Notes under the pieces: generated by a model
The model's input: the letters and a program-made list of their open reading frames with translations, nothing else
Told to the model about the DNA's origin: nothing
Database searches by the model: none
Origin: an uncultured Clostridia bacterium
Lineage (GTDB): Bacteria; Bacillota; Clostridia; Christensenellales; UBA1242
DNA length: 64,000 nucleotides
Reading direction: 5' to 3'
Assembly (NCBI GenBank): GCA_947591785.1
Contig: CANQDK010000002.1
Location: forward strand, 79,069 to 143,068
Shown: piece after piece, positions 14,555 to 62,850 of the stretch
Numbering within the stretch: the stretch's first letter is position 1
Layout of the letters: every line of letters starts with the position of its first letter
Program-made: the position numbers and the translations under genes

Positions 14555-14617
14555 AAAAACCTCACTGATTCATTTGAGAATTTTTTTGCAAGTGTTAGCC
14601 TTTAAATCTATATTTTT

Positions 14618-14647
14618 ATTTTAACACTTTTGAATTGAATTTATCAA
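14618..14647 (-). promoter_or_regulatory. Candidate sigma-A promoter of the giant lipoprotein gene
   Basis: The minus strand reads TTGATA-N18-TGtTAAAAT (extended -10), about 60 nt upstream of the ATG at 14554. Confidence 0.4.
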
Positions 14648-14959
14648 ATAAAAATACAAAATAAATTATATAAAATATAAAGGAATTTTCGCAAATAACA
14701 AATCCATAAAATTTTTATTTTTTAAAGAAAAATTCGCAGAACATAAAAAGTATTTTTGTTTAGGATTTCTAACACGAAAAAATGGTTTAAAAATTTTTAT
14801 TTTTTACAATATTTTTAAAAAAAATAAATTAATAAAAAAATCAAAAAATTAATATTTTTCTTGATTTTTTCATCATTTTTTTGTAAAAAAATTGATTTTT
14901 TATTTATTTTTCATTTTTTCATATATTTTTTCACATTATAAAAACTGTCGAAAAAATAT

Positions 14960-38469: not shown

Positions 38470-38554
38470 AAAATCCTCTTTCAATTCTATTCAATTTTTA
38501 TTTTATATCTAAAATTAAAAAAAAGCAAGAAAAGAGAGATATTTTCAAATAAAT

Positions 38555-38829: not shown

Positions 38830-38905
38830 GCCCGTGTAGCTCAATGGATAGAGCATCGGTCTTCGGAACCGAGTGTTGCGTGTTCGAGTCGCGTCACGGG
38901 CACCA
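38830..38905 (+). tRNA. tRNA-Arg: tRNA-Arg (anticodon UCG), CCA encoded
   Basis: GCCCGTGTAGCTCAATGGATAGAGCATCGGTCTTCGGAACCGAGTGTTGCGTGTTCGAGTCGCGTCACGGGCACCA. The acceptor pair is GCCCGTG/CACGGGC and the anticodon stem TCGGT/ACCGA with loop CTTCGGA. The T-arm has GTTCGAGTC. Confidence 0.9.
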
Positions 38906-50534: not shown

Positions 50535-50973
50535 ATGCAAGAAGTTTTTGAATTTTTAGAGAACAATCCTGTGCAATATTGTGCTACAATAGGTTTGGAC
50601 GGAAAGCCAAAAGTTAGGCCTTTTCAAATGATGTATCACGAGCAAGGCAATTTGTTCTATTGCACAGGTGCAAAAAAAAGATGTGTATGCAGAGCTTACA
50701 AAAAATCCATATTTGGAAATAAGCGTTTCTACACTTGATAAATGGCTTCGCATTCGTGGAAAAGTGCATTGGGTTACAAACAACGAAACAAGAGAAAAGT
50801 GTTTGAATGCAAGCCCACTTGTAAAATCAATATACAAAACAGCGGACAATCCTATTTTGCAAGTTTTCTACATTGAGGACGCAGAAGCTGTGCTTGCCGA
50901 TTTTTCTGGCAATCCGCCAAAGAAGTTTAATCTTAATAAATGTGAGGAAAATGGAAAAACAAAAAGTAATTGA
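50535..50973 (+). pseudogene. Pyridoxamine-5'-phosphate-oxidase-like (FMN-binding split-barrel) gene disrupted by a +1 nt frameshift in an A8 run
   Basis: The track ORFs 50529-50738 and 50668-50973 are two halves of one protein: ...NLFYCTGAKK | DVYAELTKNPYLEISVS...RIRGKV. They join if the A8 run at 50672-50679 is read as A7. Confidence 0.7.
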
Positions 50974-51706
50974 CAAGCTTTTGAATATGCTTGCAAAAAA
51001 ACTTAATTTGAAAATTCAGCCGACGGGCGACTACCTACAAGATAGACGCCTGTTTCGTGGCGTTTGTAATCAGCTTCCGCCTATGGATTTGGGAGATGAT
51101 TTTTATAAATTGCAAGATGAACTTTTGAAAACTGAAAGCATAGAAAAAGGTGTTGTTGACATAAATTCTTTGAAATATAAAAACAATATTTCGCTTTTTA
51201 AGGGCGATATAACAACACTCAAAGCAGACGCCATTGTCAACGCAGCAAACGACCAATTTCTTGGTTGTTTTGTGCCATGCCATAATTGTATTGACAATGT
51301 GATTATGAGTGCAAGCGGCTTTCAAATGCGAAATGAACTTGCTCGGCTTAAAAAACAAAAAAATTATGATAACGAGTTTGTAAAAATAACAAGCGGATAC
51401 AACTTGCCATGCAAGTATGTTTTTCATGTTGCAGGGCCACAAATTTTTGGCGAAGTAACCGAAAAAGATAAGCAGGATTTGGCGAATTGTTATCTTTATT
51501 GCTTAAACAAAGCAAAAGAAATGGGATTAAAAAGTATAGTATTTTGTTGTATTTCAACAGGTGTTTACTCTTTTCCAAACGAACTTGCTTGTGAAATTGC
51601 AATTAAAACTGCTCGAGATTGGCAAAGCAAAACAAAAAGCAATCTAAAAATTGTTTTTAATGTTTTTAAGGATATTGATGAGGAACTTTATGAGCAAAGA
51701 TTATGA
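50951..51706 (+). CDS. Macro-domain protein (ADP-ribose binding / protein-ADP-ribose hydrolase type)
   Basis: Motifs ISLFKGDITTLKADAIVNAANDQFLG, VFHVAGP and CISTGVYSFP (GxY-type phosphate loop). GAGGAAA lies upstream of ATG 50951; the track start is 50873. Confidence 0.8.
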   Translation: MEKQKVIDKLLNMLAKKLNLKIQPTGDYLQDRRLFRGVCNQLPPMDLGDDFYKLQDELLKTESIEKGVVDINSLKYKNNISLFKGDITTLKADAIVNAANDQFLGCFVPCHNCIDNVIMSASGFQMRNELARLKKQKNYDNEFVKITSGYNLPCKYVFHVAGPQIFGEVTEKDKQDLANCYLYCLNKAKEMGLKSIVFCCISTGVYSFPNELACEIAIKTARDWQSKTKSNLKIVFNVFKDIDEELYEQRL

Positions 51707-52049: not shown

Positions 52050-52286
52050 ATGAACGAAACAAATAATTCAAGAAAAAGAAGGTCAACAAGGTCAAAAATA
52101 GGCAATGCTCTTTTAACTGCAGGCGTGATTATGGGTGTGGCAGGCATTGCCAAATCAATTAAAAAGTCTAATGACGAGCAGCCAACAAGTAAGGTCAAGT
52201 ATTGCAGCGAGTGCGGAGTAAAAAACGAAATCACTGCAAATTTCTGTTGGCAATGTGGACATAAATTTGTTCAAATAGACAAATAA
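52050..52286 (+). CDS. Small bitopic membrane protein with a C-terminal zinc-ribbon
   Basis: TM segment IGNALLTAGVIMGVAGIA, then KYCSECGVKNEITANFCWQCGHKF (CxxC-x10-CxxC). Confidence 0.6.
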   Translation: MNETNNSRKRRSTRSKIGNALLTAGVIMGVAGIAKSIKKSNDEQPTSKVKYCSECGVKNEITANFCWQCGHKFVQIDK

Positions 52287-52297
52287 AGGAGAAAATT

Positions 52298-52861
52298 ATG
52301 GCAGAACTTAATGGAAATTACGTTAACGAAGAAAATCATCAAAAGGTAAAAACAAAACTTCAAAAAATTGGATATGTCCTGTTGGGTGTTGGTGCTGTTT
52401 TCAGTATTGTGGGCATTGTGTTGTTGATTTTTGGTTTCACATCAATGGGCAAAATAGTTGAAAAAACCGAGCCTGGAATTCCAACAGTAGGTCAAGGATT
52501 TTCTTCAAGTATCGGCTTATTTATAGGTGGAGGAATTTTGTTAACTATCGGCATAGGTATGTTTGCTTATGGTGTCTATGCATCATTTTTTGCTCATGCA
52601 CGTGAAATAGCCGCGTATGGTGCAAGCACGGTTGCTCCAGTTATTGGAGAGACAACAAACTATCTTGCAGATGAAACATCTCCTGCAATTCAGAAAGTTA
52701 CAAGTGCTATTTCAAATGGAATAAGAGGAAAACAACCAAACGAAAAAGCTGAAACACAAAGTGAACAACAAATAAATTCTGATATAAAATATTGCACTGA
52801 GTGCGGAGCAAAAAACACTCGTGAATCAAAATTCTGCACAAAATGCGGAAACAAATTTTAA
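52298..52861 (+). CDS. Membrane protein (2-3 TM) with a C-terminal zinc-ribbon
   Basis: AAAGGAGAAAATT SD. TM segments IGYVLLGVGAVFSIVGIVLLIFGF and IGLFIGGGILLTIGIGMFAYGVYASFF. The C-terminus is KYCTECGAKNTRESKFCTKCGNKF. Confidence 0.7.
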   Translation: MAELNGNYVNEENHQKVKTKLQKIGYVLLGVGAVFSIVGIVLLIFGFTSMGKIVEKTEPGIPTVGQGFSSSIGLFIGGGILLTIGIGMFAYGVYASFFAHAREIAAYGASTVAPVIGETTNYLADETSPAIQKVTSAISNGIRGKQPNEKAETQSEQQINSDIKYCTECGAKNTRESKFCTKCGNKF

Positions 52862-53036: not shown

Positions 53037-53480
53037 TTATAAATCTCTAAAGTTCTCTCGAGCAACCATTCCAAGAATGCCAGCACCTGCTATAGAAGTT
53101 ACGCTGGCTAAAACTAAACCTGCTCCAATGCTTGCGTCTTTTATAGCGGTTTTATATAATTTTTCACAACAATCTTTATGCCCTTCTTCGACCCAAATAT
53201 TGCGGAAAACACTTAAATCTTCTGTTCCATTGATATAAGACACCCTCACATCAAACTCCGAATTCGATATTTCCCCATTATCGAATTTTTCTTGAACCTT
53301 TTGAAGTTCTTCTAAACGATAGTTGTCATACGCTTTTGCTTCGTTTAAATGTCCCCGCCATGAAAAAATGCCTCCACCTATCATAAGTCCAACCGAGCCT
53401 GCACCAATTACGGCAGCACCTAAACTGCAAATAATTCCTGCTTTCAAACAAGATTTTCTCCAACTTTTATCTGAATACAT
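53037..53480 (-). CDS. Small two-TM protein with glycine-zipper-like helices
   Basis: AAAGGAGAAAAAAT SD. TM helices GIICSLGAAVIGAGSVGLMIGGGIF and ASIGAGLVLASVTSIAGAGILGMV flank an ~80-aa soluble loop. It lies directly downstream (same strand) of the AAA+ gene. Confidence 0.6.
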   Translation of the reverse strand: MYSDKSWRKSCLKAGIICSLGAAVIGAGSVGLMIGGGIFSWRGHLNEAKAYDNYRLEELQKVQEKFDNGEISNSEFDVRVSYINGTEDLSVFRNIWVEEGHKDCCEKLYKTAIKDASIGAGLVLASVTSIAGAGILGMVARENFRDL

Positions 53481-53787: not shown

Positions 53788-55806
53788 TTATCCGTTTGCT
53801 TTTTTCCATTCTAGAATTTTTTCAATGTCCTCTTTTTGAACAGAAGGAGTGGTTTGAGAAAGTGCCTCAACAAAGTCATCGTTACAAATAAATTTTTCAT
53901 TTGTTTTTAAACCTCGTATAGCAGAAATTTCCTCAACTTTGTCAAGAAGGGAAGAAATATCTGCACCATTGAAGCCTTCTGTATTTTTGACAACATTTTC
54001 AATGTCAAAATCTCTTATCTCAACAACTTTTTTCTCTTTCAATTTTTCCATTCGTCTGTTTATCATGTATTGTCTCGCAGGAGCATCTGGCAATCCTATA
54101 TAAATTCTTGTTCCAAAACGCCCTGGCCTTAGAAATGCACTATCCACATCCCATGGTTTGTTTGTTGACGCAATGAGAAATAATATATTCTTATTTTCTT
54201 TGCCGTAATCTTCAATGCCTTGCAATTGTGACAACAACTCTGATCTCAATTGTTTTGCATATTGTGCCCTGGTCGATTTTGAGGAAATTGAATCCATCTC
54301 ATCAAAATATATAACTGCACACGGAAATTGTCGTGCCTGCAAGAACAATGATTTTACTGCTTTTTCAGTGTTTCCAATTCCTGTATTTAAAAGGTCGGAA
54401 GGTTTAATTGAACAAAACTTTGCACCAATTTCATTTGCTATCGCAGCTGCTATCATGGTTTTTCCTGTTCCAGGAGGTCCATACAGCAAAAGCCCGCCTC
54501 CGCTTTTTCGAACATACCCTTCAAAAGCATCAGGGCGTTGAAGAGGCAATAAAACTTTCACTTTGACAACTTCTTTCACATTTTCTAGTCCTGCGATGTC
54601 ATCAAAATTTATTGCTGGAAGGTTGTCCCAGTCAAATTTATATTCATTTTTTTCTTCTTCTTTTTCAAAAGAAAACTTCTCTTCAATTTTTTCATTTTTG
54701 TCTATTTTTTCATCATTAGACATGTTCACTTCAAGCGGAATATCTTCCATTGTTATCGTTTGTAATTGGCTGTCACTTGGCTCATCCATTTGAGCAATTC
54801 GCTTAGACTGTTTTGTAACAACATTTTCAAAAAAGTTTCTCACATCTCTTCCATTACCAAAATTTTTACCTCTGTTTTGATAAAGAGAATAAAAATATTT
54901 CTGTAAGAAATGCTTTACATCTTCTTCAATAACATACTGACTCTTTTGACAAAATTTGACGAAAATGTTGTATAATTCTTTTCCGTCATAGTCATCGAAA
55001 TGAATAAAGTTTTTGAAACGAGATTTAAGGCCAGGATTTGAATTTATAAATTTTTCCATAGGTCCGTCATAACCAGCCACGATTACCACAAGGTCATCAC
55101 GCTTATCTTCCATTTCCTTTAATATGGTTTCAATAGACTCCTGTCCAAAGTCGTTTGAGCCACCACCCACAAGCGAATAAGCTTCATCAATAAACAGAAC
55201 TCCGCCTAGAGCCTTTTTGATAACTTCTCTTGTCTTTTCAGCGGTCTGCCCAACATAACCAGCAACAAGTCCGCCTCTGTCAACTTCAACTAAACTCCCC
55301 TCACTCAAGATTCCAAGTGCACAATAAATTTGAGCCATCAGACGAGCAACAGTTGTTTTTCCTGTTCCAGGATTTCCAGTGAACACAAGATGATATGACA
55401 TATCAGGAACGGACAAGCCTCTTTCCTTTCGCTTTTGAAAAACTTTTATTTGGTCAACCCAGTCGCGAACCTTCGCTTTAACCTTTCCCAAGCCCTCAAG
55501 ATTTTCAAGACGACTTAATGCTTCTTCAAGGGAGATTTTTTCATTTTTCTGAGCTTCAACTTCTTTATTTACAGATTTTTCTTTCTTAGGTAAATCAATG
55601 CTTTCCGCCATTTCAATTAAACTTTTTGCTCTGCTAAACCTTGCTTTTTGAAGTTGATTATCGCTTGCCTTTGCCATTTTTAACATCTGTTCAGCAGCAA
55701 GAAAATAATATCGCTTTGCAAGAAGCATATCTTTTTTTTCGTGACACTCCTTTGCTTTGCGATAATAAAGTTCAAATGTTTCATTTAACAAACTTATGTC
55801 AGGCAT
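53788..55806 (-). CDS. MIT-domain protein with two AAA+ modules (SpoVK/CbbX-type followed by Vps4/katanin-type)
   Basis: aa 1-75, ELYYRKAKECHEKKDMLLAKRYYFLAAEQMLKMAKASD...RAKSLIEMAESI, follow the MIT three-helix pattern. AAA-1 has HLVFTGNPGTGKTTVARL...VLFIDEAY...VIVAGY. AAA-2 has LLLYGPPGTGKTMIAAAIA...VIYFDEMDS...ASTNKPWDVDSAFLRPGRF. The C-terminus ...TPSVQKEDIEKILEWKK resembles meiotic-clade AAA proteins. Confidence 0.85.
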   Translation of the reverse strand: MPDISLLNETFELYYRKAKECHEKKDMLLAKRYYFLAAEQMLKMAKASDNQLQKARFSRAKSLIEMAESIDLPKKEKSVNKEVEAQKNEKISLEEALSRLENLEGLGKVKAKVRDWVDQIKVFQKRKERGLSVPDMSYHLVFTGNPGTGKTTVARLMAQIYCALGILSEGSLVEVDRGGLVAGYVGQTAEKTREVIKKALGGVLFIDEAYSLVGGGSNDFGQESIETILKEMEDKRDDLVVIVAGYDGPMEKFINSNPGLKSRFKNFIHFDDYDGKELYNIFVKFCQKSQYVIEEDVKHFLQKYFYSLYQNRGKNFGNGRDVRNFFENVVTKQSKRIAQMDEPSDSQLQTITMEDIPLEVNMSNDEKIDKNEKIEEKFSFEKEEEKNEYKFDWDNLPAINFDDIAGLENVKEVVKVKVLLPLQRPDAFEGYVRKSGGGLLLYGPPGTGKTMIAAAIANEIGAKFCSIKPSDLLNTGIGNTEKAVKSLFLQARQFPCAVIYFDEMDSISSKSTRAQYAKQLRSELLSQLQGIEDYGKENKNILFLIASTNKPWDVDSAFLRPGRFGTRIYIGLPDAPARQYMINRRMEKLKEKKVVEIRDFDIENVVKNTEGFNGADISSLLDKVEEISAIRGLKTNEKFICNDDFVEALSQTTPSVQKEDIEKILEWKKANG

Positions 55807-55816
55807 ATTTCCCCTT

Positions 55817-56377
55817 TTAAGACATCTTTTTCTTTAACTGTTCAAGTTCCTTTTCAATCTCACTGTCAACCGCACCATCCATGCTTGCTTCATTGTTGAG
55901 AACAGCTTCAAGTTCTTTATGTTCTTCTTCACTAGTCATTGTGCGAGAAGAGAAAGTCGATTGAGTTTCTTCCAAAAATTCTTCCATCTGCTCGGCTTGA
56001 ACTTCGACACCCATCATTGCCTCATTAAACTGCTTCTCAACCTTCTTAAAGTCGGATTCTTTTGTAAGTTTCATCATATCCTTGCTTAAAACACTCATGC
56101 CTGCAAGAAAGTCAGAAGTCATTTTTGTCATATCTTTCATTTGAGAGGTGATTTCAAAATTTAACTTCATTTCATAAACACTTCTCTGCTGAGAAATTGT
56201 CATTTTTAAACCAGCTAAGGCAAGATTGTATTGAGCAGTAAGGCCTTTTTGTTTTGCCTCCTTTCCAGCATCAATATAGCCTTGCTTTTGTTTTTCAAGC
56301 TTCTGGATTTGTTTCTCCATTTCGTTTATTGTGCGTTTTATAAGCATACGCTTTTCAATTTCTTTTTTAGACGACAT
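55817..56377 (-). CDS. ESCRT-III/Snf7-like (PspA/Vipp1 superfamily) coiled-coil protein with a C-terminal MIM1-like motif
   Basis: 186 aa, all-helical heptad pattern. INEMEKQIQKLEKQKQGYIDAGKEAKQKG + LTAQYNLALAGLKMTISQQRSVYEMKLNFE reads as an alpha1/alpha2 hairpin. MTSDFLAGMSVLSKDMMKL...FKKVEKQFNEAMMGVEVQAEQMEEFLEE matches the Snf7 alpha3-alpha5 pattern. An acidic linker follows, then the terminal DSEIEKELEQLKKK. Confidence 0.6.
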   Translation of the reverse strand: MSSKKEIEKRMLIKRTINEMEKQIQKLEKQKQGYIDAGKEAKQKGLTAQYNLALAGLKMTISQQRSVYEMKLNFEITSQMKDMTKMTSDFLAGMSVLSKDMMKLTKESDFKKVEKQFNEAMMGVEVQAEQMEEFLEETQSTFSSRTMTSEEEHKELEAVLNNEASMDGAVDSEIEKELEQLKKKMS

Positions 56378-56388
56378 AAATTTCTCCT

Positions 56389-56985
56389 TTATTTATTTTC
56401 ATCACTACTCGTTTTGGTTTCGGCGGAAGTTGAAAACATTTCTTGTTCATTGTCAATTTGCTCTTCTGTTTCAAACATGGCAAGAAGTGCATCATCTTGG
56501 TCGCTCATTCCGTATATGCTTTCATTCTTGTCATAAGACTCTTCAACCTCTTTAAAAACTTCGTCAGCAGATGTCAAAATATCTTCGCTCTTTGTCTTTG
56601 TTCCAAGTGCTTTATTCAAAAACTTTGCAAGCCCTTTTTGGTCTGCAAGAAGTTTGTTAAGCGGAATTTTTGTTGTGTTTTTAAAAAATTGATTGTCATC
56701 TATTGCGGTTTTAAGTTTGTTTAAAAGTTGAGTGTTATACATGAGATACATTGCTCGCTGAACACTTTGTTCTCTTTCAAGTTTAAGTGAGTTGATTTTT
56801 TTTGCATAAAAAAGTTTGACATCTTTCTCTTTTTCAGCCTTTCCCTTTGCCATTAACTGATTGATTTGTTCTTGTTTTGCACTCAAACCTTCTTCAATTT
56901 CTTTTTCTTCTTGTTCAAGTTTGCAAATGGCGTCAACCACTTCTTCGCGTGACATTTTGTCATATTTATTTTTAAAAAACCACAT
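56389..56985 (-). CDS. Second ESCRT-III/Snf7-like coiled-coil protein
   Basis: 198 aa. It has an aromatic N-terminus (MWFFKNK). LEQEEKEIEEGLSAKQEQINQLMAKGKAEKEKDVKLFYAKKINSLKLEREQSVQRAMYLMYNTQLLNKLKTAI fits the Snf7 hairpin pattern (K..A...lk.kk..e.q). The C-terminal tail is acidic. Confidence 0.5.
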   Translation of the reverse strand: MWFFKNKYDKMSREEVVDAICKLEQEEKEIEEGLSAKQEQINQLMAKGKAEKEKDVKLFYAKKINSLKLEREQSVQRAMYLMYNTQLLNKLKTAIDDNQFFKNTTKIPLNKLLADQKGLAKFLNKALGTKTKSEDILTSADEVFKEVEESYDKNESIYGMSDQDDALLAMFETEEQIDNEQEMFSTSAETKTSSDENK

Positions 56986-56998
56986 ATTTTACTACCCC

Positions 56999-57325
56999 TT
57001 AAAGTTTTGCGTTTCTGTCAGCGATATTAAGACGAATATCTGCAAGAGCATTTTCAACTTTTTTGCTGGTTTCACCATCTGATTTGACAAGGGCAATTCT
57101 CATATCCTCAATATGTCTTTTGATTTTGACATCAAAATCATAAATCTTATCATCAGGAGAAGGAACAAGATATTTAATTTTTTCCTTTAATTCTTTAAGT
57201 TTTTCAACCAAATTTTCATCTTTTTCGGCAAGAATTAAAAGAGCATCAATAGCCTTTTCGTTTTGACTTATAAGTTCTCTGTCTTTTGTATTGTTTTGTG
57301 AATTTTTCTTTTTAAATAAGCCCAT
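56999..57325 (-). CDS. Small helical protein with a CHMP-like MGLFKKK N-terminus
   Basis: 108 aa with a TAGGAGG SD. It is predicted all-helical and its family is unassigned. Confidence 0.5.
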   Translation of the reverse strand: MGLFKKKNSQNNTKDRELISQNEKAIDALLILAEKDENLVEKLKELKEKIKYLVPSPDDKIYDFDVKIKRHIEDMRIALVKSDGETSKKVENALADIRLNIADRNAKL

Positions 57326-57335
57326 TTTAAACCTC

Positions 57336-58355
57336 CTATTTTAACTTTGTTCCGCAAGACGAACAGAACACTGCATCTTTATCATTTAACTTTCCGCATT
57401 TTGGACAAAGATTTGTGTCTTTTCCAACTTTCTTTCCACATTTTGCACAGAATTTGTCATTGCCACTGATTTCCGCTCCGCAGTTTGAACAGAACGAACC
57501 TGTTTTGTTATCTTTTGGATGGCCAATGATTTTCAAAACTTCATAATATGCATTTTTGTCTGCCAATTCAAGTTGGCGGAGATATTTTTCTCTTTCCCAT
57601 TGTTTGTCATCAAGTCTTTCAAGTTCGGCAAGATACTCTTTGACTTTCTCGTTTTTCTTCACTTCGGCAGCAGCTTCTTCGACAGCATTGCTATCTTCGT
57701 CACTTATGCCCAAATATTCAATGACAAAATTGCTAAGTCCAATTCCCCAACTGTTTTCAAAAATTTTGCTGAGGAGTTTTCCAGTGTTCTCTTGGATTTT
57801 TTTCTTGTTTGCATCAAATTTGTCATACGTCAACTTTAACTCATCAACAACTTTCAAGAAATTGTCAGTAAATTCACTTAAAACATTTGCACTAAATCTT
57901 TCTTGGAATTCATCAAGGCTGAACTCTTTTTTGACACCAACAACTTTTCTGAAAAATTGTTCAGGATTAACGATTACAACATCAAAGACACCATGTGCAG
58001 CAACACTGATAACTTTGTTGCTTGCCTCATCTCTATATTTGATTTTTTCCTTTGTCCCCCACTTTATAGGAACATTTGGGTCTTTTGGCATATAGATTAT
58101 GTCTACAGATGAGCCGATTTTCCAATTTTTAACTTCTGTCTTGTCGTCAAAAACAGGATAAGTTCCACTCTTATAAACTCTTCCATCTCCGCCACCTTTG
58201 ATGACATAGGCGATATGTGTAAGTGGAACTTCAAACATAGCCTTTTTGTTTTTAACCTGGTCGGTTACTCTCACAAACAAAATCTTATTGTCGTCAACAC
58301 TAGCTTTGCAAAGATTTTGTTCAAACTTAATCACTTGTGTTTCTTTTTTTAACAT
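57336..58355 (-). CDS. SPFH/Band-7-like protein with C-terminal tandem zinc-ribbons (COG4260/YdjI-type architecture)
   Basis: AAGGAGAG SD before ATG 58355; the track start is 58403. A beta-rich N-terminal ~230 aa is followed by the coiled-coil KVKEYLAELERLDDKQWEREKYLRQLELADK. The C-terminus is FCSNCGAEISGNDKFCAKCGKKV...LCPKCGKLNDKDAVFCSSCGTKL. Confidence 0.65.
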   Translation of the reverse strand: MLKKETQVIKFEQNLCKASVDDNKILFVRVTDQVKNKKAMFEVPLTHIAYVIKGGGDGRVYKSGTYPVFDDKTEVKNWKIGSSVDIIYMPKDPNVPIKWGTKEKIKYRDEASNKVISVAAHGVFDVVIVNPEQFFRKVVGVKKEFSLDEFQERFSANVLSEFTDNFLKVVDELKLTYDKFDANKKKIQENTGKLLSKIFENSWGIGLSNFVIEYLGISDEDSNAVEEAAAEVKKNEKVKEYLAELERLDDKQWEREKYLRQLELADKNAYYEVLKIIGHPKDNKTGSFCSNCGAEISGNDKFCAKCGKKVGKDTNLCPKCGKLNDKDAVFCSSCGTKLK

Positions 58356-58471
58356 AACTCTCTCCTTAAAAAATTTTTCTTTAGAAAAATAATATTCTGT
58401 CAATTCATTATATCACTAAACGATGTGGAAAAGTCAAGTGTTTTACATTCTGTAAACCTTTACATGCAAAA

Positions 58472-59221
58472 TTAGAACATAGGTATAGTCTTTCTCACAC
58501 TTGACAAAAATTGGATTATGATATCGCAAGGCACTGCAAAATTCATGCCTTCTGCACCAGTGACACCCGAAACTATTGCACCAATCACTTTTCCTTTTTC
58601 GTTGAACATAGGGCCACCCGAATTTCCACCATTTATTGCACAGTCTGTCATTAAAAGTCGTTTTCCTTTGACAATTCTTGACTTATCGCTGACAATTCCA
58701 CTTGTGATGCAAGTTCCAGCACCCAACGAATTCCCAACAACATAAACTTGTTCGCCGATACGAACTTTTTCAAAGTCTTCAAATTCAAGTGCAACAGCCC
58801 CTCTTGGTAGATATTGCAATTTGATAAGTGCCAAATCGACACCACTGCCATCTCCGTGTCTATCGTCACCCAATGCAACAACCACTGCAGGAACTTTTGT
58901 GTTGTTTATCTTCACCCAAACTTGTTCACAAGACTTGCCATCTGCAAATGTGACGACATGAGTATTTGTGATTGCATATCCCTGTTTGTTGATGAGAAAG
59001 CCCGAGCCTGAGTTTAGAATGTTTCCATTTTGCCAAGTGATTTCAAGAATGCCGCCAATGTTTTTTTCAAACACACTTGCACCACCGCTTATAGATTTTT
59101 CTTTCACGTGAACTGACTCTGTCATCACGTCATCTTCTGAAAAAACCGAACCGCAATACAAACATTTATATTTCCCGTTTTCTTGTTTTTTACATTCACC
59201 TTGACAGAATTTGCAATTCAT
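58472..59221 (-). CDS. Zinc-ribbon-fused trypsin-like (S1/HtrA-type) serine protease, no signal peptide
   Basis: N-terminal CKFCQGEC-x10-CLYCGSVF. The catalytic triad context is AITNTHVV (His), VDLALIKL (Asp) and NGGNSGGPMFN (Ser). AAGGAGG SD. Confidence 0.8.
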   Translation of the reverse strand: MNCKFCQGECKKQENGKYKCLYCGSVFSEDDVMTESVHVKEKSISGGASVFEKNIGGILEITWQNGNILNSGSGFLINKQGYAITNTHVVTFADGKSCEQVWVKINNTKVPAVVVALGDDRHGDGSGVDLALIKLQYLPRGAVALEFEDFEKVRIGEQVYVVGNSLGAGTCITSGIVSDKSRIVKGKRLLMTDCAINGGNSGGPMFNEKGKVIGAIVSGVTGAEGMNFAVPCDIIIQFLSSVRKTIPMF

Positions 59222-59275
59222 ATTTCCTCCTTGAATCTTTTATAGACTTGAATTTTTAGAATAATCTTATATTTT

Positions 59276-62200
59276 TTATACATCTTTTTTCCACGTCTCA
59301 GTCCTATAATCGGATTTAAGTAATTGTGCCATTTTAGTAGGATTTTTCAACTCATAATAAATTCCTTTTGAACCAGCATGCCAACCAGTTGACGTATCTT
59401 TAAATACTACTTCATTTAGATTTTTGAGACTTGAAAATGCATAACTGTTTATGGTGGTAAGTCCTGTAGAAATTGTCACCTTTGTAACCCTTTCCATCAT
59501 TTCACCTGGAATCCAGCCACCGTCTATTGTTATTACCACCTTTCCATTAAGTTCTTCTGGAATTTCAATTTCAACATCACCATCATCTCTGATATAACAA
59601 GTTCTAACTTCCCCCGATGTAATTCTCAAAAGGTAGCCCTCCCCCACAAACACTTGGCTTTGATAGAGAGGAATCATTCCCAAGCATACAGAAATCAAAA
59701 CTGGTGCTATGAATGGCAAGAAAAGCATTATTTTGTCTACTGTGACGCTATATGGCTCTCTATAATATGCCACCATACAGTAAATAGTCACTAATAATAA
59801 TATGCTGAACAAAATTAGCATTGGAATTAATATGTAATCATCACCCATAAATCCGACAGCATAGACAAGCCAGAAATCAAATTTTCCACAAAGCGTTAAA
59901 ATCAACGTAACAACTATGCCAGCACCCAAAATAAACGATGCAGGAAGAAGAATATAGCGTTGTGGCCTTGTTTCGTCCCACCCTTCGCGGCCAAAAAAAT
60001 ATACAAAAGCTTTCCAAAGCATTATTAAAGGAAAACCAATTATCATAAAGAATTTTTTGATTAAAGATGCATTAAGAAATTGCATTCTATATGTGCGATC
60101 TAGTTTGTTGTCGTATCTATGTGTCTCTATTAATTCTCTTTTCTTTTTAAAATTGTCTGAATAATAATCATTTTCACTTTCTTGCAATTCTTTTAAACAT
60201 TTTTCTATATCGTTGTGATTAAAAATGTTTGCAAGTGCTATAAGATTGTCAAATACATCAGTTTTCATTCTTGGAAGACGAGAACCATGATAAGTTTGAT
60301 TTAAAGCCAATTTTAATTCCCCTGTTGCACTCTTCAGCCCCTTACATATATTTGATGGAGTGGAAGTTTTCAAATTTAACCCATAATTGTTGTTAAATCT
60401 TTTAACTAAATCTTTTAAATAATTTTCACTAAAGGTTTCGTAGGCTTTTTTGTAAATCGGTAGCATGTCGTTTTTGTGAAGTTTTGAATCAAATCCAAAA
60501 CTTATGGTTGGAACCATATATTTGTTTACTTTTGCACAATCAGCCACAGCTTTATTTAATTCAAGATAATAGTTTTCAGCATTTGGAAACTTTTCTGTGT
60601 AGGTGTTTATTGCTGAAAGATAATCTTCATCGTCTAAAAGTTCATCAGAATACTTCATTAAATCTGCATCTTGAACAACTTTATGTCTAACCAAAAATCT
60701 GTTAAAATAAGCATTATGGTCAAACGGGTCAATTGAGAGGACAAGATTGATATATTCAGCGATTTTATCAAAATCCTTTTTTAAATAGTCTATATTTTCT
60801 GCCCCTTGCACTTCGCCCATTTTTTCAATTCGATAGTTCACTCTGTTTGAAAAGTCTTCAAAGTCATAGAGATAATCCAAAAACGAGTTTACCGTATTTT
60901 TAAACATTTCGTTTTCTTGCTTTGGTATCATGCTGAGCAAAAAGTCAAATATGCTGCAAGCACTATCAATATCTCTTTTGCCAGATTCATCTCTTTTATT
61001 GATTGTTATTTCTGTCAGTTTTTTAACCGCATAATTGTTATAGCCATAGGCAAAAACTTGTTCTTCAATCGTCTTTTGATTTTCGATATTACTGCAATAT
61101 TCGTAAATCAAATCATCGTTTAACAAATTATTCTCTACTAAGAAAGTTTCATAAAGAGCCTCTTGATTTGATGGATCAATGCTTAAAATGTTGTCATAAT
61201 ATGTTTTTCGGTTTTCGGCAGGAAGAATATGTAAAAACTCTGTGTTCATCTTTAAATAAAGGTCGGTATCCTTAATCGTTCTGATAATACTATTGAACAC
61301 TGTTTCATCTTTTGATTCCAATGCGGATTTAAACATAACACTTGTTAAGGTTGCAATTGATTCATCATCTGAATCAGGCAAAGCAATATATTCTTCATAA
61401 TCGGAAAGATTTTTATGTTTTTTAACTCTTTCCTCAAGCAAATCATACAACGAGTTGTCATCTTTATGGCGTGTTGCGATAGCCTTTTCAAAGACACTAT
61501 AATCGTCTATCTTTGGACATTCCACAAACTTCTCTTTGTCTGAAAATTTGTTTTCAGCAAGGAATGAAATAAAATACGCGTCACTAAGACTAGGATTTAT
61601 GCCCAAAATGCTATTGCAGAAAGACTGAGCATGAACATAGTCACCATTTTTCAAAAGATCTTCCGCATTTTTAAGCATTGTAAGTTCTGAAATTGTGGCT
61701 TTTTTACCCTTTAAATCTCCCAAATCCCTCTTTTTGATGGCTTGTTTATTTAATTGCTTTTTCTTTACTTGAATTTCGGCATAATCTTTTCTTTGAATTG
61801 TTGGAATATTTGAAGAAGAAAATTTATCTACAAAATCCAACACCTGTTGAAGTGCCTTATAGTTGTTAAAATCAATACCTTGAATTTTTCCCTTAACATT
61901 TGGCAATTTTTCAACAGGTTTACCTTTAAAAACAAAGGTTATACTCCCATCTTCCTTTTCACCCTCGGAAAGCATGTGATTATATCTTGAATATTCATTT
62001 CGAACCCAAGGAGTCTGCAAATATGCTTCATTTGTGCAAACAATAATCATGCTTTTTGCACAATAAAGAGCATAGAGAATCATTGCCTCATAGTCCGAAC
62101 CAACTTTGCCACTCATTTCCTCTTCCGAGTAGAAAGGTTTATAGTCAAGTTTTCTCAGTTCGTGATAAAGTTTTGAAGCGATTGTGCTGTCCTCTGTGTG

Positions 62201-62734
62201 ATTTCCCTCTTCAGTGGTAACTTTCACGCAGATAAAGGTGTCGTAGTCAAGTCCAGAATTTTTAAGTTCAAAAAACTTGTTTCTTATGTAGTCTATCTCT
62301 TCCGCCTTTGCCTTATAAATGGCTCTCTGCTCTGGCGAAGCAAGTTCCATCGCTTTGAGATAGTTTTTGTCTTCTACAAATTTATTACTGCTGACATCAT
62401 AACAAATAGGTTGAAAGCGATATTTCACTCCATCTTCCCCATTTGTGACATCTTTAAGATACTGAACCTTTGCTGTTGCAAGAGCCATTCCAAAGTAACC
62501 CTCAGGCCCATCTGGTTCAAGTTCTGTTGCCTTTTGGAACATTATGTAGGCATCATCAAAGTGAAAGGTTTCAAGATTTTGTTCACCTTCCACTAATTTA
62601 GACCTTGTTGAAGAAAATGACTTAGGTAAAATCATTTTGCTTCTGCAATATGGACATGTCAACACGCCATTCACAGAGGTTGTTATATCAAGTTTGCCTT
62701 CACAGTTTTTACATCTCAATTCATTAACATTCAT
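59276..62734 (-). CDS. Zn-ribbon / TPR-like / TIR-domain protein with a long helical region, 4-5 TM helices and a C-terminal BspA-type LRR-like segment
   Basis: N-terminal CKNCEGK-x15-CPYCRSK. The TIR-like block is DYDTFICVKV...EDSTIASKLYHELRKLDYKPFYSEEEMSGKVGSDYEAMILYALYCAKSMIIVCTNEAYLQTPWVRNEY. The TM cluster includes FFMIIGFPLIMLWKAFVYFF...IMLFLPFIAPVLISVCLGMIPLY. The C-terminus is VTKVTISTGLTTINSYAFSSLKNLNEVVF. GAGAGG lies 6 nt upstream of ATG 62734. Confidence 0.7.
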   Translation of the reverse strand: MNVNELRCKNCEGKLDITTSVNGVLTCPYCRSKMILPKSFSSTRSKLVEGEQNLETFHFDDAYIMFQKATELEPDGPEGYFGMALATAKVQYLKDVTNGEDGVKYRFQPICYDVSSNKFVEDKNYLKAMELASPEQRAIYKAKAEEIDYIRNKFFELKNSGLDYDTFICVKVTTEEGNHTEDSTIASKLYHELRKLDYKPFYSEEEMSGKVGSDYEAMILYALYCAKSMIIVCTNEAYLQTPWVRNEYSRYNHMLSEGEKEDGSITFVFKGKPVEKLPNVKGKIQGIDFNNYKALQQVLDFVDKFSSSNIPTIQRKDYAEIQVKKKQLNKQAIKKRDLGDLKGKKATISELTMLKNAEDLLKNGDYVHAQSFCNSILGINPSLSDAYFISFLAENKFSDKEKFVECPKIDDYSVFEKAIATRHKDDNSLYDLLEERVKKHKNLSDYEEYIALPDSDDESIATLTSVMFKSALESKDETVFNSIIRTIKDTDLYLKMNTEFLHILPAENRKTYYDNILSIDPSNQEALYETFLVENNLLNDDLIYEYCSNIENQKTIEEQVFAYGYNNYAVKKLTEITINKRDESGKRDIDSACSIFDFLLSMIPKQENEMFKNTVNSFLDYLYDFEDFSNRVNYRIEKMGEVQGAENIDYLKKDFDKIAEYINLVLSIDPFDHNAYFNRFLVRHKVVQDADLMKYSDELLDDEDYLSAINTYTEKFPNAENYYLELNKAVADCAKVNKYMVPTISFGFDSKLHKNDMLPIYKKAYETFSENYLKDLVKRFNNNYGLNLKTSTPSNICKGLKSATGELKLALNQTYHGSRLPRMKTDVFDNLIALANIFNHNDIEKCLKELQESENDYYSDNFKKKRELIETHRYDNKLDRTYRMQFLNASLIKKFFMIIGFPLIMLWKAFVYFFGREGWDETRPQRYILLPASFILGAGIVVTLILTLCGKFDFWLVYAVGFMGDDYILIPMLILFSILLLVTIYCMVAYYREPYSVTVDKIMLFLPFIAPVLISVCLGMIPLYQSQVFVGEGYLLRITSGEVRTCYIRDDGDVEIEIPEELNGKVVITIDGGWIPGEMMERVTKVTISTGLTTINSYAFSSLKNLNEVVFKDTSTGWHAGSKGIYYELKNPTKMAQLLKSDYRTETWKKDV

Positions 62735-62820
62735 CACAGACCTCTCATAAAATTAAAAAAACAACTTCAACATGACGGCTCAGTTTTGCTAAATAAACTA
62801 TGCATCAATAATACATATTA

Positions 62821-62850
62821 ATTCTACCATTTAAGTGTAAACTATGTCAA
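62821..62850 (-). promoter_or_regulatory. Near-consensus extended -10 promoter of the seven-gene TIR/ESCRT-III-like operon
   Basis: The minus strand reads TTGACA (62850-45), an 18-nt spacer, then TGgTAGAAT (TAGAAT at 62826-21), ~80 nt upstream of the start codon. Confidence 0.55.

What the first reader, a model, noticed from the sequence alone, without database searches (positions are those of the whole stretch)
53788..62850. Seven-gene operon coupling a TIR membrane protein and a cytoplasmic trypsin-like protease to an SPFH / double ESCRT-III-like / MIT-AAA+ (Vps4-like) module
One near-consensus promoter (62821-50) is followed by seven co-oriented genes. Intergenic gaps are only 54, 116, 10, 13, 11 and 10 nt, and each gene has a strong SD. 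The order is: (1) Zn-ribbon-TPR-TIR multi-pass membrane protein, 1,152 aa. (2) Zn-ribbon trypsin-like serine protease lacking a signal peptide. (3) SPFH/Band-7 protein with two Zn-ribbons. (4) 108-aa helical protein starting MGLFKKK. (5) and (6) two coiled-coil proteins whose helix pattern matches Snf7/ESCRT-III. (7) a protein with an N-terminal MIT-like three-helix domain followed by a SpoVK-type and a Vps4/katanin-type AAA+ module. ESCRT-III polymer plus an MIT-AAA+ disassemblase is the core archaeal/eukaryotic membrane-scission machine. Bacterial ESCRT-III relatives (PspA/Vipp1) are not normally paired with a Vps4-like ATPase. Linking such a module to a TIR domain (an NAD-consuming immune signalling or effector domain in bacteria) and a protease suggests one of two roles. 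It could be an abortive-infection/defence system whose output or self-protection is membrane remodelling. Alternatively it could be a damage-sensing membrane-repair system. I do not recognise this combination as any named defence system or stress operon, but I cannot search databases.
Basis: partly seen in the sequence, partly recalled or inferred. Interest (0 to 1): 0.95.

Follow-up and report, generated by a model that had tools for sequence, protein, structure and literature searches.

The report
Bacterial ESCRT-III/Vps4-like operon with TIR

Summary
Seven co-oriented minus-strand genes (62734..53788) follow a near-consensus promoter, with the stated gaps and Shine-Dalgarno sites.

Confirmed domain calls:
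- TIR_2, with the WxxNE glutamate conserved.
- Trypsin_2, with an intact H/D/S triad.
- YdjI-type SPFH plus two Zn-ribbons.
- g6 belongs to the Snf7/ESCRT-III family and ends in a MIM1-like helix.
- The g7 N-terminus is a high-confidence MIT fold whose best structural matches are CdvC and VPS4 MIT domains. It is followed by a SpoVK-type and a classical AAA module.

Weaker calls: g5 is only weakly ESCRT-III-like, and g4 is unassigned.

The order SPFH, small anchor, E1, E2, MIT-AAA recurs in about 79 species of Christensenellales-like gut MAGs. Many of these have a canonical 370-aa MIT plus single-AAA (Vps4/CdvC) architecture.

TIR-membrane proteins and trypsin-like proteases accompany the core in most loci, at shifting positions. 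More distant versions add Snf7-RuvB-NERD, Snf7-FtsK and BrxL-like ATPases.

No PADLOC system and no paper I could find describes it.

Best reading: an ATP-recycled ESCRT-III-type membrane machine that works in a defence or conflict role, or possibly in membrane repair. This is a new variant of a known kind. The function is inferred, not shown.

The parts
62821..62850 (-). Sigma-70-type promoter TTGACA-18-TGnTAGAAT, about 80 nt upstream of g1
   Evidence: 11 of 12 matches, TG extension; sequence read
59276..62734 (-). g1 (T): Zn-ribbon, TPR, TIR, long helical region, 4 TM helices and a small extracytoplasmic C-terminal domain (1152 aa)
   Evidence: TIR_2 at 37.3 bits against a cutoff of 28, weak TPR and LRR_5 hits; TM segments at aa 890-1021; homologues in 58 of 79 loci
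61856..62197 (-). TIR domain of g1 (aa 181-294) with the W244-x-x-N247-E248 motif
   Evidence: W, N and E are each at least 80% conserved among 67 homologues
59675..60070 (-). Membrane-spanning region of g1 (four hydrophobic segments)
   Evidence: Kyte-Doolittle, 19-residue windows scoring 1.7-2.75
58472..59221 (-). g2 (P): N-terminal Zn-ribbon plus trypsin/HtrA-like serine protease; no PDZ domain, no hydrophobic segment
   Evidence: Trypsin_2 at E 1.3e-27; triad H88, D129, S201; no hydrophobic (TM-like) segment
57336..58355 (-). g3 (S): YdjI-type SPFH (Band_7_1) plus coiled coil plus two C-terminal Zn-ribbons; no TM helix
   Evidence: Band_7_1 at 1.1e-15, Zn_Ribbon_1 x2 and DZR; start codon; no TM
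56999..57325 (-). g4 (a): 108-aa helical protein with an N-terminal MGLFKKK motif. Many orthologues carry an N-terminal TM helix instead. Probable membrane anchor or adaptor; family unassigned.
   Evidence: no Pfam or PDB hit; hhalign to the Snf7-like family 5%
56389..56985 (-). g5 (E1): 198-aa helical protein with an N-terminal MWFFKNK motif and a conserved IYG..DDxLLAMFE motif. Possible diverged ESCRT-III paralogue.
   Evidence: collinear hhalign to the g6 family, probability 42%, E 2.7e-4; no PDB hit
55817..56377 (-). g6 (E2): Snf7/ESCRT-III-family protein
55823..55867 (-). C-terminal MIM1-like helix of g6: D171-x-x-I174-x-x-E177-L178-x-x-L181-K182
   Evidence: invariant I174, E177, L178, L181; pattern kept in all 59 paired loci; consensus DxxIxxxLxxL in the broad family
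53788..55806 (-). g7 (V): MIT domain plus SpoVK/CbbX-type AAA plus classical (CdvC/CDC48-D2-type) AAA plus Vps4_C helix
55597..55806 (-). MIT three-helix domain of g7 (aa 1-70)
   Evidence: AF2 pLDDT 91.6; Foldseek hits 2w2u, 1yxr, 2v6x, 4a5x at TM 0.65-0.75
54739..55512 (-). g7 AAA module 1 (SpoVK type): Walker A GNPGTGKT, Walker B VLFIDE, pore loop AGYVGQT
53797..54624 (-). g7 AAA module 2 (classical): Walker A GPPGTGKT, Walker B VIYFDE, pore loop NTGIGNTEK without an aromatic residue, Vps4_C helix
53511..53546 (-). Terminator-like hairpin with a T-run, about 240 nt after the g7 stop codon; likely end of the transcription unit

Best explanation
The operon encodes a bacterial ESCRT-III/Vps4-type membrane-remodelling machine with immune-type accessory proteins.

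Core mechanism (inferred from homology):
- The soluble YdjI-like SPFH/Zn-ribbon protein (g3) and the small membrane-tethered protein (g4) mark a site on the cytoplasmic face of the membrane.
- They nucleate a copolymer of two helical subunits. g5 has a hydrophobic-basic N-terminus. g6 is a Snf7-family protein.
- The C-terminal MIM1-like helix of g6 recruits the MIT domain of the AAA+ ATPase (g7).
- The ATPase extracts subunits, and so drives remodelling or recycles the polymer.

Accessory layer:
- The membrane protein g1 has a cytoplasmic Zn-ribbon-TPR-TIR head with the catalytic glutamate kept. Its membrane and outside part is hypervariable between species.
- g2 is a cytoplasmic Zn-ribbon trypsin-like protease.
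- I take these two as the sensing and effector components. Envelope or infection-linked perturbation would gather TIR proteins on or next to the polymer. TIR NADases are activated by clustering, and the protease would process a component or target. The ATPase keeps the system off or resets it.

I think the biological role is most likely anti-phage or anti-mobile-element defence, or another conflict function, carried out at the membrane.

Shown here: domain identities, the MIT fold, the MIM-like motif, intact catalytic motifs and gene co-conservation.
Inferred: polymerisation, MIT-MIM binding, the order of events and the role.

My probabilities are about 0.85 that this is a true ESCRT-III-plus-MIT-AAA functional module, and about 0.55 that its role is defence or conflict.
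For: Core identity:
- g6 is a Snf7-family protein, and its fold hits are ESCRT-III proteins.
- g7 has a MIT fold.
- Both AAA modules have intact Walker motifs, and Vps4_C scores above the Pfam cutoff.
- Relatives have a 370-aa MIT plus single AAA with pore loop SKWVGESEK. The CdvC model aligns to them end to end.
- The MIM1-like motif is invariant.
- There is one charge swap between MIM position 177 and MIT positions 58/59, seen in L082.

SPFH link: g3 has the YdjI architecture. YdjI recruits PspA to the membrane in B. subtilis (PMC8581546). Archaeal Meth_adaptin ESCRT loci also encode an SPFH, coiled-coil and Zn-ribbon protein (PMC10936438).

Co-conservation: the order S-a-E1-E2-V occurs in most of 79 loci.

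Defence reading:
- The TIR WxxNE motif is conserved in 67 homologues from 58 loci.
- T proteins range from 441 to 1590 aa with 0-13 TM helices, and are often duplicated and repositioned.
- Relatives carry Snf7-RuvB-NERD, Snf7-FtsK (SspH-like, E 1e-47) and a full-length short BrxL (E 2e-201) inside the cluster.
- Flanking genes are not syntenic.
- There is a precedent for an ESCRT-III-superfamily protein in bacterial immunity: a CBASS cyclase is conjugated to PspA (PMC11153139).
Against: - There are no experimental data.
- The window's g6 alone scores only E 0.033 on Pfam Snf7, and its AF2 model is mediocre (pLDDT 63, Foldseek E > 0.1).
- g5 is not securely ESCRT-III.
- The window's second AAA module lacks a pore-loop aromatic residue. 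The AAA core is as close to CDC48-D2 as to CdvC/Vps4.
- No PADLOC model hits the SPFH, g4, g5 or g6 proteins.
- g6 has no homologue in the phage or plasmid collections.
- The core proteins are highly conserved (45-79% identity across genera), and some loci have the core without TIR or protease. That pattern fits a housekeeping machine.
- The operon's neighbours in this genome are ordinary metabolic and transport genes.
Confidence: 0.55

Rival explanations
1. This is a Psp-like envelope-stress and membrane-repair system. The SPFH protein and anchor recruit the ESCRT-III-like polymer to damaged membrane, as YdjI, YdjG and YdjH recruit PspA. The MIT-AAA ATPase recycles the polymer. The TIR-membrane protein acts as a damage sensor or scaffold, and the protease removes damaged membrane proteins, as HtrA does. 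No immune function is involved.
For: - g3 has the YdjI-type SPFH architecture, and YdjI has a published role with PspA.
- The core proteins are strongly conserved, and some loci have only the core.
- The best NCBIfam matches for the protease are HtrA and DegP.
- Small Zn-ribbon membrane proteins and a SHOCT-like membrane protein lie next to the operon. SHOCT is listed as a PSP partner domain.
- The operon sits in an ordinary chromosomal setting.
Against: - The TIR catalytic glutamate motif is conserved, which argues for enzymatic rather than scaffolding use.
- The membrane and outside parts of T are hypervariable and T is often duplicated.
- NERD nuclease, RuvB-like, FtsK/SspH-like and BrxL-like partners in related clusters have no obvious role in membrane repair.
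- g5 and g6 do not hit PspA_IM30.
- The protease has no signal peptide or TM helix, so it cannot reach the extracytoplasmic misfolded proteins that HtrA acts on.
Confidence: 0.25
2. This is a housekeeping reverse-topology scission machine for extracellular vesicle formation, protein sorting, or a division or sporulation step. It would be analogous to the role proposed for non-TACK archaeal ESCRT systems. The TIR-TPR membrane proteins would serve as cargo or site adaptors.
For: - The component set (ESCRT-III, MIT-AAA, SPFH with Zn-ribbon, Zn-ribbon adaptors) parallels archaeal Meth_adaptin systems, which are predicted to sort proteins.
- Conservation across many genera is high.
- The first AAA module is SpoVK-like.
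- Snf7-FtsK fusions recall SpoIIIE and FtsK acting at septal membranes.
Against: - The locus position is not conserved, and the strict pattern scan found it in only 79 species.
- The accessory repertoire (TIR, NERD, BrxL, trypsin) is typical of conflict systems.
- No cargo-type domains (adaptin, GOLD, wH ESCRT-II) were found.
Confidence: 0.13
3. The genes are merely neighbours. A generic AAA ATPase and coiled-coil proteins happen to resemble ESCRT components, and there is no functional ESCRT-like module.
For: - Helical proteins give weak profile and fold scores.
- Three-helix bundles are common folds.
Against: - Gene order is conserved in about 60 or more species with unrelated flanks.
- The same set recurs in distant versions, L082 and L087.
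- The MIM-like motif is invariant and sits next to a MIT-domain ATPase.
- Snf7 is the only Pfam family hit repeatedly across the g6 family.
Confidence: 0.02

Closest known systems
Archaeal ESCRT/Cdv systems (CdvB/ESCRT-III plus CdvC/Vps4), especially the 'Meth_adaptin' type described by Makarova et al. 2024 (PMC10936438)
   Same: - One or more Snf7-family subunits are encoded directly upstream of a MIT-AAA ATPase.
- There is a C-terminal MIM-like helix.
- An SPFH protein with coiled coil and Zn-ribbon lies in the same locus.
- Zn-ribbon-bearing accessory proteins are present.
- In many relatives of the window, the ATPase has the exact CdvC length and layout.
   Different: - The host is a bacterium (Christensenellales-like Clostridia).
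- There are no CdvA, ESCRT-II winged-helix, adaptin or GOLD components.
- In the window the ATPase has an inserted SpoVK-type AAA module and a degenerate pore loop in the second module.
- TIR, trypsin, NERD and BrxL-type partners are not reported for the archaeal systems.
- NCBIfam CdvC scores are far below the equivalog cutoff (196-221 against 650).
Bacillus subtilis PspA-YdjGHI system (Scholz et al. 2021, PMC8581546)
   Same: - The SPFH protein is of the Band_7_1/YdjI type: soluble, with a C-terminal zinc finger.
- It is encoded together with small membrane proteins and an ESCRT-III-superfamily polymer former.
   Different: - The polymer subunits here are Snf7-like, not PspA_IM30.
- A dedicated MIT-AAA ATPase is present.
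- TIR and protease genes are present.
- The promoter is sigma-A-like, whereas pspA-ydjGHI is described as a sigma-W-controlled operon.
Bacterial PspA plus tandem-AAA dyad, and Vps4-like plus TPR-6TM pairs, noted by Ravi, Aravind and co-workers (PMC11237479)
   Same: - An ESCRT-III-superfamily gene lies next to a two-AAA-domain ATPase in Firmicutes.
- Elsewhere, a Vps4-like ATPase is paired with a TPR plus multi-TM protein, an architecture that resembles the non-TIR part of g1.
   Different: - In the published dyad, the partner is PspA and the N-terminal AAA module is inactive. Here the partner is Snf7-like, both AAA modules have intact Walker motifs, and the ATPase starts with a MIT domain.
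- In the published Vps4-like transfers, snf7 is absent.
- No SPFH, TIR or protease link was described.
TIR-based and AAA-plus-protease anti-phage systems (Thoeris, IetAS, BREX BrxL)
   Same: - A TIR domain with the catalytic glutamate is present.
- A classical AAA ATPase that hits IetA models is encoded with a serine protease.
- A short BrxL homologue lies inside some related clusters.
   Different: - There is no ThsA-type sensor, no IetS, and no PglX or PglZ.
- PADLOC finds no system.
- The ESCRT-III-like, SPFH and MIT components have no counterpart in those systems.

Membership tests
ESCRT-III / Snf7 family (g6) | Profile similarity to Snf7 (PF03357) or to solved ESCRT-III proteins | tested here: met
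   - The window protein alone scores E 0.033 (below gathering).
- Twelve of 25 close relatives hit Snf7 (best 2.1e-5), as do 12 of 83 broad relatives (best 1.4e-9).
- The family profile hits CHMP2A at E 2.1e-4 over positions 9-149, followed by CHMP1B and CHMP3.
- No PspA_IM30 hit.

ESCRT-III / Snf7 family (g6) | Helical hairpin plus alpha3-alpha5 architecture | tested here: inconclusive
   - The AF2 model has pLDDT 63, with helices at 2-43, 47-101, 107-145, 150-163 and 170-185.
- Top Foldseek hits are CHMP1B, CHMP2A/3, CdvB and Asgard ESCRT-IIIB (probability 0.87-0.90), but E is 0.1-0.6 and BAR domains are interleaved.

ESCRT-III / Snf7 family (g6) | C-terminal MIT-interacting motif. The MIM1 consensus (D/E)xxLxxRLxxL(K/R) is recalled from memory. 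| tested here: met
   - The window has D171xxI174xxE177L178xxL181K182. The spacing is identical, with E in place of R.
- The pattern is conserved in all 59 paired loci.
- L082 has the canonical R.

ESCRT-III / Snf7 family (g6) | Polymerises on membranes and remodels them | not testable with these tools
   Needs biochemistry or EM.
ESCRT-III / Snf7 family (g5) | Profile or fold similarity to ESCRT-III | tested here: inconclusive
   - hhalign of the g5 family against the g6 family gives probability 42% and E 2.7e-4, collinear over 163 columns.
- No Pfam or PDB hit.

Vps4 / CdvC ATPase (g7) | N-terminal MIT three-helix domain | tested here: met
   - AF2 pLDDT is 91.6.
- Foldseek top hits are the CdvC MIT (2w2u) and the VPS4A MIT (1yxr, TM 0.73, rmsd 1.3), followed by Vps4, MITD1 and katanin.
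- Sequence-level Pfam MIT hits are weak (E 0.014-0.17 in relatives).

Vps4 / CdvC ATPase (g7) | A single classical AAA module with an aromatic pore loop 1 | tested here: not met
   - The window protein has two AAA modules, SpoVK type plus classical. The classical module's pore loop is NTGIGNTEK, with no aromatic residue.
- The feature is met in relatives such as L059, L063, L076 and L081 (370-385 aa, SKWVGESEK).

Vps4 / CdvC ATPase (g7) | C-terminal Vps4_C helix | tested here: met
   PF09336 scores 24.6 bits against a cutoff of 21.3 in the window protein, and up to 33.7 bits in relatives. From memory, this helix is also found in other classical AAA proteins, so it is weakly discriminating.
Vps4 / CdvC ATPase (g7) | Curated equivalog score (NCBIfam NF041006 CdvC) or orthology by phylogeny | tested here: not met
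   - Scores are 196 bits (window) and 208-221 bits (single-AAA relatives, aligned end to end over model positions 4-366 of 370), against a cutoff of 650.
- CDC48-D2 scores are equal or slightly higher.
- No tree with reference sequences could be built.

Vps4 / CdvC ATPase (g7) | Encoded next to ESCRT-III genes | tested here: met
   g6 lies immediately upstream of g7 (10-nt gap). The adjacency or close linkage is kept across the loci.
Psp system (PspA/Vipp1) | PspA_IM30 domain protein | tested here: not met
   PF04012 was not hit by g5, g6 or their family members.
Psp system (PspA/Vipp1) | YdjI-type SPFH partner | tested here: met
   Band_7_1 at E 1.1e-15, no TM helix, C-terminal Zn-ribbons. 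The comparison with YdjI is from PMC8581546.
TIR NADase | TIR domain with the catalytic glutamate | tested here: met
   TIR_2 scores 37.3 bits against a cutoff of 28. W244, N247 and E248 are each at least 80% conserved in 67 homologues. Identifying this E as the catalytic glutamate rests on recalled alignments of SARM1 and plant TIR domains.
TIR NADase | NAD+ cleavage or signal production | not testable with these tools
   Needs an enzymatic assay.
Named anti-phage systems (PADLOC v2: Thoeris, IetAS, BREX and others) | The full component set of any one system | tested here: not met
   - Only generic hits were found: IetA and TRIP13 for the AAA, and RT-protease or LmuA for the trypsin domain.
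- Nothing hit g1, g3, g4, g5 or g6.
- A BrxL-like gene appears only in some relatives, without PglX or PglZ-sized genes nearby.

S1/HtrA-type serine protease (g2) | Trypsin fold with a His-Asp-Ser triad | tested here: met
   Trypsin_2 scores 97.7 bits; the triad is H88, D129, S201. There is no PDZ domain and no hydrophobic (TM-like) N-terminal segment, so the protein does not reach the HtrA or DegP equivalog cutoffs.

The most novel reading that the evidence does not exclude
A lineage of Bacteria has a complete, dedicated ESCRT-III/Vps4 machine. It has Snf7-type subunits with a MIM helix, a MIT-AAA disassemblase and an SPFH nucleator, and it uses the machine as the chassis of an immune system. 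Interchangeable effectors or sensors plug into the chassis: TIR NADase membrane proteins, a trypsin-like protease, and NERD, RuvB, FtsK or BrxL-type DNA enzymes. This would be the first ESCRT system (ESCRT-III plus Vps4-like) in Bacteria. It would also be a prokaryotic counterpart of the eukaryotic link between ESCRT membrane repair and immune cell death. It arose either by transfer from gut archaea or as an old bacterial branch of the family.
Probability: 0.45. Interest if true: 0.92.

Novelty: new variant of a known kind. Interest (0 to 1): 0.85.

Why it matters
[quoted passage not shown] They also state that a Vps4-like ATPase appears absent in bacteria (PMC7619361).

This locus family is widespread in Christensenellales-like gut bacteria, with more distant versions elsewhere. 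It contradicts those statements at the level of architecture, and it gives a bacterial model for ATP-driven ESCRT-III dynamics.

Its consistent association with TIR, protease and DNA-enzyme partners makes a long-standing idea directly testable: that ESCRT-III-type membrane machinery and innate immunity were linked before eukaryotes. If protective, it would add a mechanistically new class of membrane-centred defence system.

It also bears on ESCRT evolution. The questions are whether it arose by horizontal transfer between gut archaea and Clostridia or by ancient bacterial descent, and how the AAA modules were swapped on a constant MIT domain.

Tried and rejected
- **Sequence-only search for MIT.** Pfam on the g7 N-terminus gave nothing. 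On relatives it gave only E 0.014-0.17. A profile against PDB sequences gave a weak chitin-synthase MIT hit at E 0.021. Structure prediction settled the question instead.
- **Profile of close g6 relatives against PDB.** No hits. A broader alignment from the representatives search was needed.
- **N-terminal fragment as a homology query.** It returned only 8 fragments.
- **g4 as an ESCRT-III fragment.** Rejected: hhalign probability 5%, no PDB or Pfam hit.
- **Calling the ATPase an orthologue of Vps4.** Not sustained. CDC48-D2 models score as well or better, and, from memory, the KWVGESEK pore loop also occurs in archaeal CDC48 D2.
- **Mobile-element carriage.** No g6 homologue in the plasmid or phage collections. 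The ICE-like genes in the window lie at least 15 kb away, beyond a tRNA.
- **Synteny of flanks.** None with the window's neighbours, and little among the loci.
- **Riboswitch or leader RNA.** Rfam found only two tRNAs in the window.
- **Sporulation role from the SpoVK-like module.** Considered and not favoured. The module belongs to the broad SpoVK/CbbX/EccA family and scores below the equivalog cutoff.

Full report
**1. Observation**

The region 53788-62850 carries seven co-oriented ORFs on the minus strand. The best promoter-like site on that strand is TTGACA-18-TGnTAGAAT at 62850-62821, with 11 of 12 matches and an extended -10.

Each gene has a GGAGG-like Shine-Dalgarno site. That start has a Shine-Dalgarno site, and the TTG at 58403 does not. 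Independent gene calls on identical metagenome contigs also give 339 aa.

A terminator-like hairpin lies at 53546-53511. The same operon occurs on several metagenome contigs.

**2. What each gene is**

- **g1 (1152 aa).** It has an N-terminal CxxC...CxxC ribbon and weak TPR hits. Its TIR_2 domain (aa 181-294) scores 37.3 bits against a cutoff of 28. A long helical region follows, then four hydrophobic segments (aa 890-1021) and a C-terminal domain of about 130 aa with a weak BspA-LRR hit. The motif W244-V-R-N247-E248 is at least 80% conserved at W, N and E in 67 homologues from 58 loci. From memory, this corresponds to the catalytic-glutamate helix of TIR NADases.
- **g2.** A Zn-ribbon plus Trypsin_2 protein (E 1.3e-27) with triad H88/D129/S201. 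It has no PDZ domain and no hydrophobic segment.
- **g3.** Band_7_1 (E 1.1e-15) plus two Zn-ribbons, without a TM helix. This is the architecture described for B. subtilis YdjI: soluble, with a C-terminal zinc finger.
- **g4.** No detectable family. Its orthologues start either with M(G/C/F)(L/F)F(K/R)KK or with a true TM helix. It is therefore a membrane-tethered small helical protein.
- **g5.** No Pfam or PDB hit. It aligns collinearly with the g6 family by hhalign (probability 42%, E 2.7e-4). It has a hydrophobic-basic N-terminus and a conserved IYG..DDxLLAMFE motif.
- **g6.** A Snf7-family protein.
  - The window protein alone scores E 0.033 on PF03357.
  - Twelve of 25 close relatives hit Snf7 (best 2.1e-5).
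  - Twelve of 83 broader relatives hit Snf7 (best 1.4e-9).
  - The 83-sequence profile hits CHMP2A at E 2.1e-4 across nearly the whole protein, followed by CHMP1B and CHMP3.
  - The AF2 model is mediocre (pLDDT 63) but has the expected helix pattern. Its top Foldseek hits are CHMP1B, CHMP2A/3, CdvB and Asgard ESCRT-IIIB.
  - No PspA_IM30 hit appears anywhere.
  - The C-terminus is D171xxI174xxE177L178xxL181K182, with I, E, L and L invariant. This is the spacing of the MIM1 motif, recalled from memory as (D/E)xxLxxRLxxL(K/R), with E replacing R.
- **g7.**
  - aa 1-70 fold with pLDDT 91.6 into three helices.
  - The best structural matches are the Sulfolobus CdvC MIT bound to CdvB (2w2u), VPS4A MIT (1yxr, TM 0.73, rmsd 1.3 Å), yeast Vps4 MIT, MITD1, katanin and calpain-7 MIT domains.
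  - aa 99-356 form a SpoVK/CbbX/EccA-type AAA module.
  - aa 395-670 form a classical AAA module. Its best single-domain NCBIfam match is CdvC. A Vps4_C helix scores above the Pfam cutoff.
  - Both modules have intact Walker A and B motifs. The second has pore loop NTGIGNTEK, without an aromatic residue. The first has AGYVGQT.

**3. Co-conservation**

A pattern scan of one genome per species found 79 loci. All are MAGs labelled Christensenellaceae, Christensenella, Clostridia, Clostridiales, Ca. Coproplasma, Ca. Stercoripulliclostridium and similar. They come from rabbit, mouse, chicken, ruminant and human gut (taxonomy).

tblastn and ORF labelling show the order SPFH - g4 - g5 - g6 - ATPase in nearly every locus that has enough sequence. 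Identity for g6 and g5 is 45-79%.

TIR proteins of the g1 type occur in 58 loci. They sit upstream, between g6 and the ATPase, or downstream, and there are often two copies. The trypsin gene occurs in roughly half of the loci. A few loci have only the five-gene core: L006, L011, L021, L025, L039, L081.

T proteins range from 441 to 1590 aa with 0-13 TM segments after a conserved cytoplasmic head. Flanking genes are essentially unshared between loci and with the window.

**4. The ATPase varies around a constant MIT domain**

| Type | Architecture | Examples |
|---|---|---|
| a | MIT + SpoVK-AAA + classical AAA | the window |
| b | MIT + single classical AAA, 370-400 aa, pore loop SKWVGESEK, Vps4_C | L059, L063, L076, L081 |
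| c | as b, with a C-terminal extension of about 130 aa | L052, L079 |
| d | MIT + SpoVK-AAA only | L003, L009, L013, L020 |
| e | MIT + two classical AAA modules | L062 |

On type b, the NCBIfam CdvC model aligns end to end (residues 6-370 against model positions 4-366 of 370).

The AAA core scores as well or slightly better with CDC48-D2 models and with p97 D2 structures. Membership of the Vps4 orthologous group is therefore not established. The architecture and gene context are Vps4/CdvC-like.

**5. Wider family**

A profile search of 1.84 billion representatives found 389 clusters at 50% identity related to g6, of which 206 have E ≤ 1e-10. Some are N-terminal Snf7-like domains fused to other modules:
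- RuvB-like AAA+, with or without a NERD or TnsA-like nuclease.
- FtsK_alpha plus FtsK/SpoIIIE. The latter matches the SspH defence protein at E 1e-47.

Locus L082 encodes, in a row:
- a Zn-ribbon membrane protein;
- Snf7-RuvB-NERD;
- Zn-ribbon-Sel1-trypsin;
- Band_7_1;
- a 344-aa helical protein;
- a 199-aa g6 homologue ending in ISERLEKLK, which is MIM1 with the canonical R;
- a 388-aa MIT-AAA;
- a Zn-TPR-TIR-DUF6273 protein.

L087 pairs a Snf7-like gene with a 388-aa AAA and a weak Band_7 protein. L084 and L089 pair Snf7-like genes with Sel1-trypsin.

In about ten type-c loci, a full-length short BrxL homologue sits inside the cluster. It has BrxL_N plus BrxL_ATPase and hits the PADLOC BrxL model at E 2e-201. 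No other BREX-sized genes are nearby.

**6. MIT-MIM pairing**

In 57 of 59 loci, MIM position 177 is acidic and MIT position 59 is basic. In L082 the MIM has R and the MIT has E58-Q59. This is one independent charge swap. It is suggestive of contact but is not statistical evidence.

**7. Mechanism**

The best-supported reading is an ESCRT-III/Vps4-type machine:
- The SPFH protein and anchor nucleate the polymer.
- g5 and g6 polymerise on the membrane.
- The MIM recruits the MIT-AAA ATPase.
- The ATPase provides ATP-driven turnover.

All of these steps are inferred from homology.

The accessory genes point to a conflict role. They comprise a TIR domain with a conserved catalytic motif on hypervariable membrane proteins, a protease, and, in relatives, NERD, RuvB, FtsK/SspH and BrxL-type enzymes. 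A link between an ESCRT-III-superfamily protein and bacterial immunity has a precedent in the conjugation of a CBASS cyclase to PspA.

The main rival is a Psp-like repair system. It is supported by the YdjI parallel, the high conservation and the core-only loci. A vesicle or sorting role, by analogy with archaeal systems, is a third possibility.

**8. Comparison with the literature**

- Makarova et al. [quoted passage not shown] They describe an SPFH, coiled-coil and Zn-ribbon component in Meth_adaptin loci.
- A 2025 review says a Vps4-like ATPase appears absent in bacteria.
- Ravi, Aravind and co-workers noted two related cases: bacterial PspA next to a tandem AAA with an inactive first module, and Vps4-like transfers in which snf7 is replaced by a TPR-6TM protein. 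Neither equals the present system.
- Full-text searches for ESCRT/Vps4/Snf7 together with bacterial defence, TIR or Christensenellales found no description.
- PADLOC v2 finds no system.

**9. Verdict**

This is a new variant of a known kind: a bacterial ESCRT-III plus MIT-AAA system with immune-type partners. Its function is untested.

Noticed in passing
P0161, P0168, P0174, P0177, P0198, P0214, P0237, P0249; L082:8001-10403; L084:245-2089: Distant relatives of g6 are N-terminal Snf7-like domains fused to other modules. One set carries RuvB-like AAA+ with or without a NERD or TnsA-like nuclease. Another carries FtsK_alpha plus FtsK/SpoIIIE, which is SspH-like. These are membrane-polymer domains joined to DNA motors or nucleases.
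   Followed up: partly
L052:12036-13472, and equivalents in L053, L055, L058, L070, L078, L079: A short BrxL homologue of about 478 aa is embedded in the ESCRT-like cluster of about ten species. It has BrxL_N plus BrxL_ATPase and no Lon protease domain, and hits the PADLOC BrxL model at E 2e-201. No other BREX-sized genes are nearby.
   Followed up: partly
L003, L009, L013, L020, L052, L059, L062, L063, L079 (ATPase genes downstream of the g6 homologue): The MIT domain is constant, but the AAA part is swapped between species. Variants are SpoVK type only, single CdvC-like, single plus a C-terminal domain of about 130 aa, SpoVK plus classical, and two classical modules.
   Followed up: partly
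window 50873-51706 (+): A Macro-domain protein (ADP-ribose binding or hydrolysing fold, E 6.5e-30) lies about 2 kb from the TIR operon. It is not found near the other loci, so the link may be coincidental.
   Followed up: partly
window 52050-52286 (+), 52298-52861 (+), 53037-53480 (-): Two small membrane proteins with C-terminal Zn-ribbons lie here. A 147-aa two-TM protein with a weak SHOCT-like hit sits directly downstream of the operon. It has its own promoter-like site (53672-53644) and follows the hairpin at 53546-53511. These genes are not conserved in other loci.
   Followed up: partly
window 36475-38484 (-), 38830-38905 (+), 3026-14554 (-): A TraG/VirD4-type type IV coupling protein lies next to a tRNA-Arg gene, and a 3842-aa ORF lies further upstream. 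The lower half of the window may therefore be an integrative conjugative element. The ESCRT-like operon lies at least 15 kb beyond the tRNA.
   Followed up: no
L082:13386-13985 and 13988-15154, compared with window 55823-55867 and 55597-55806: There is an apparent charge swap between the MIM-like helix and MIT helix 3. The window has E177 with R59, and L082 has R with E58/Q59. This is a single event, so it is only a lead for a contact.
   Followed up: partly
g4 orthologues in L010, L047, L060, L066, L067, L074, L076 and others: The small protein g4 alternates between an N-terminal TM helix and a short M(G/C/F)(L/F)F(K/R)KK motif. From memory, that motif resembles the N-terminal membrane-insertion motif of CHMP proteins. 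g5 has a similar MWPFKSK start.
   Followed up: partly
L085:1085-1925, L086:462-1302: A 199-aa distant g6 relative sits directly after a small HTH_17 (excisionase-like) gene on short soil or metagenome contigs. This hints that some Snf7-like genes travel on mobile elements.
   Followed up: no
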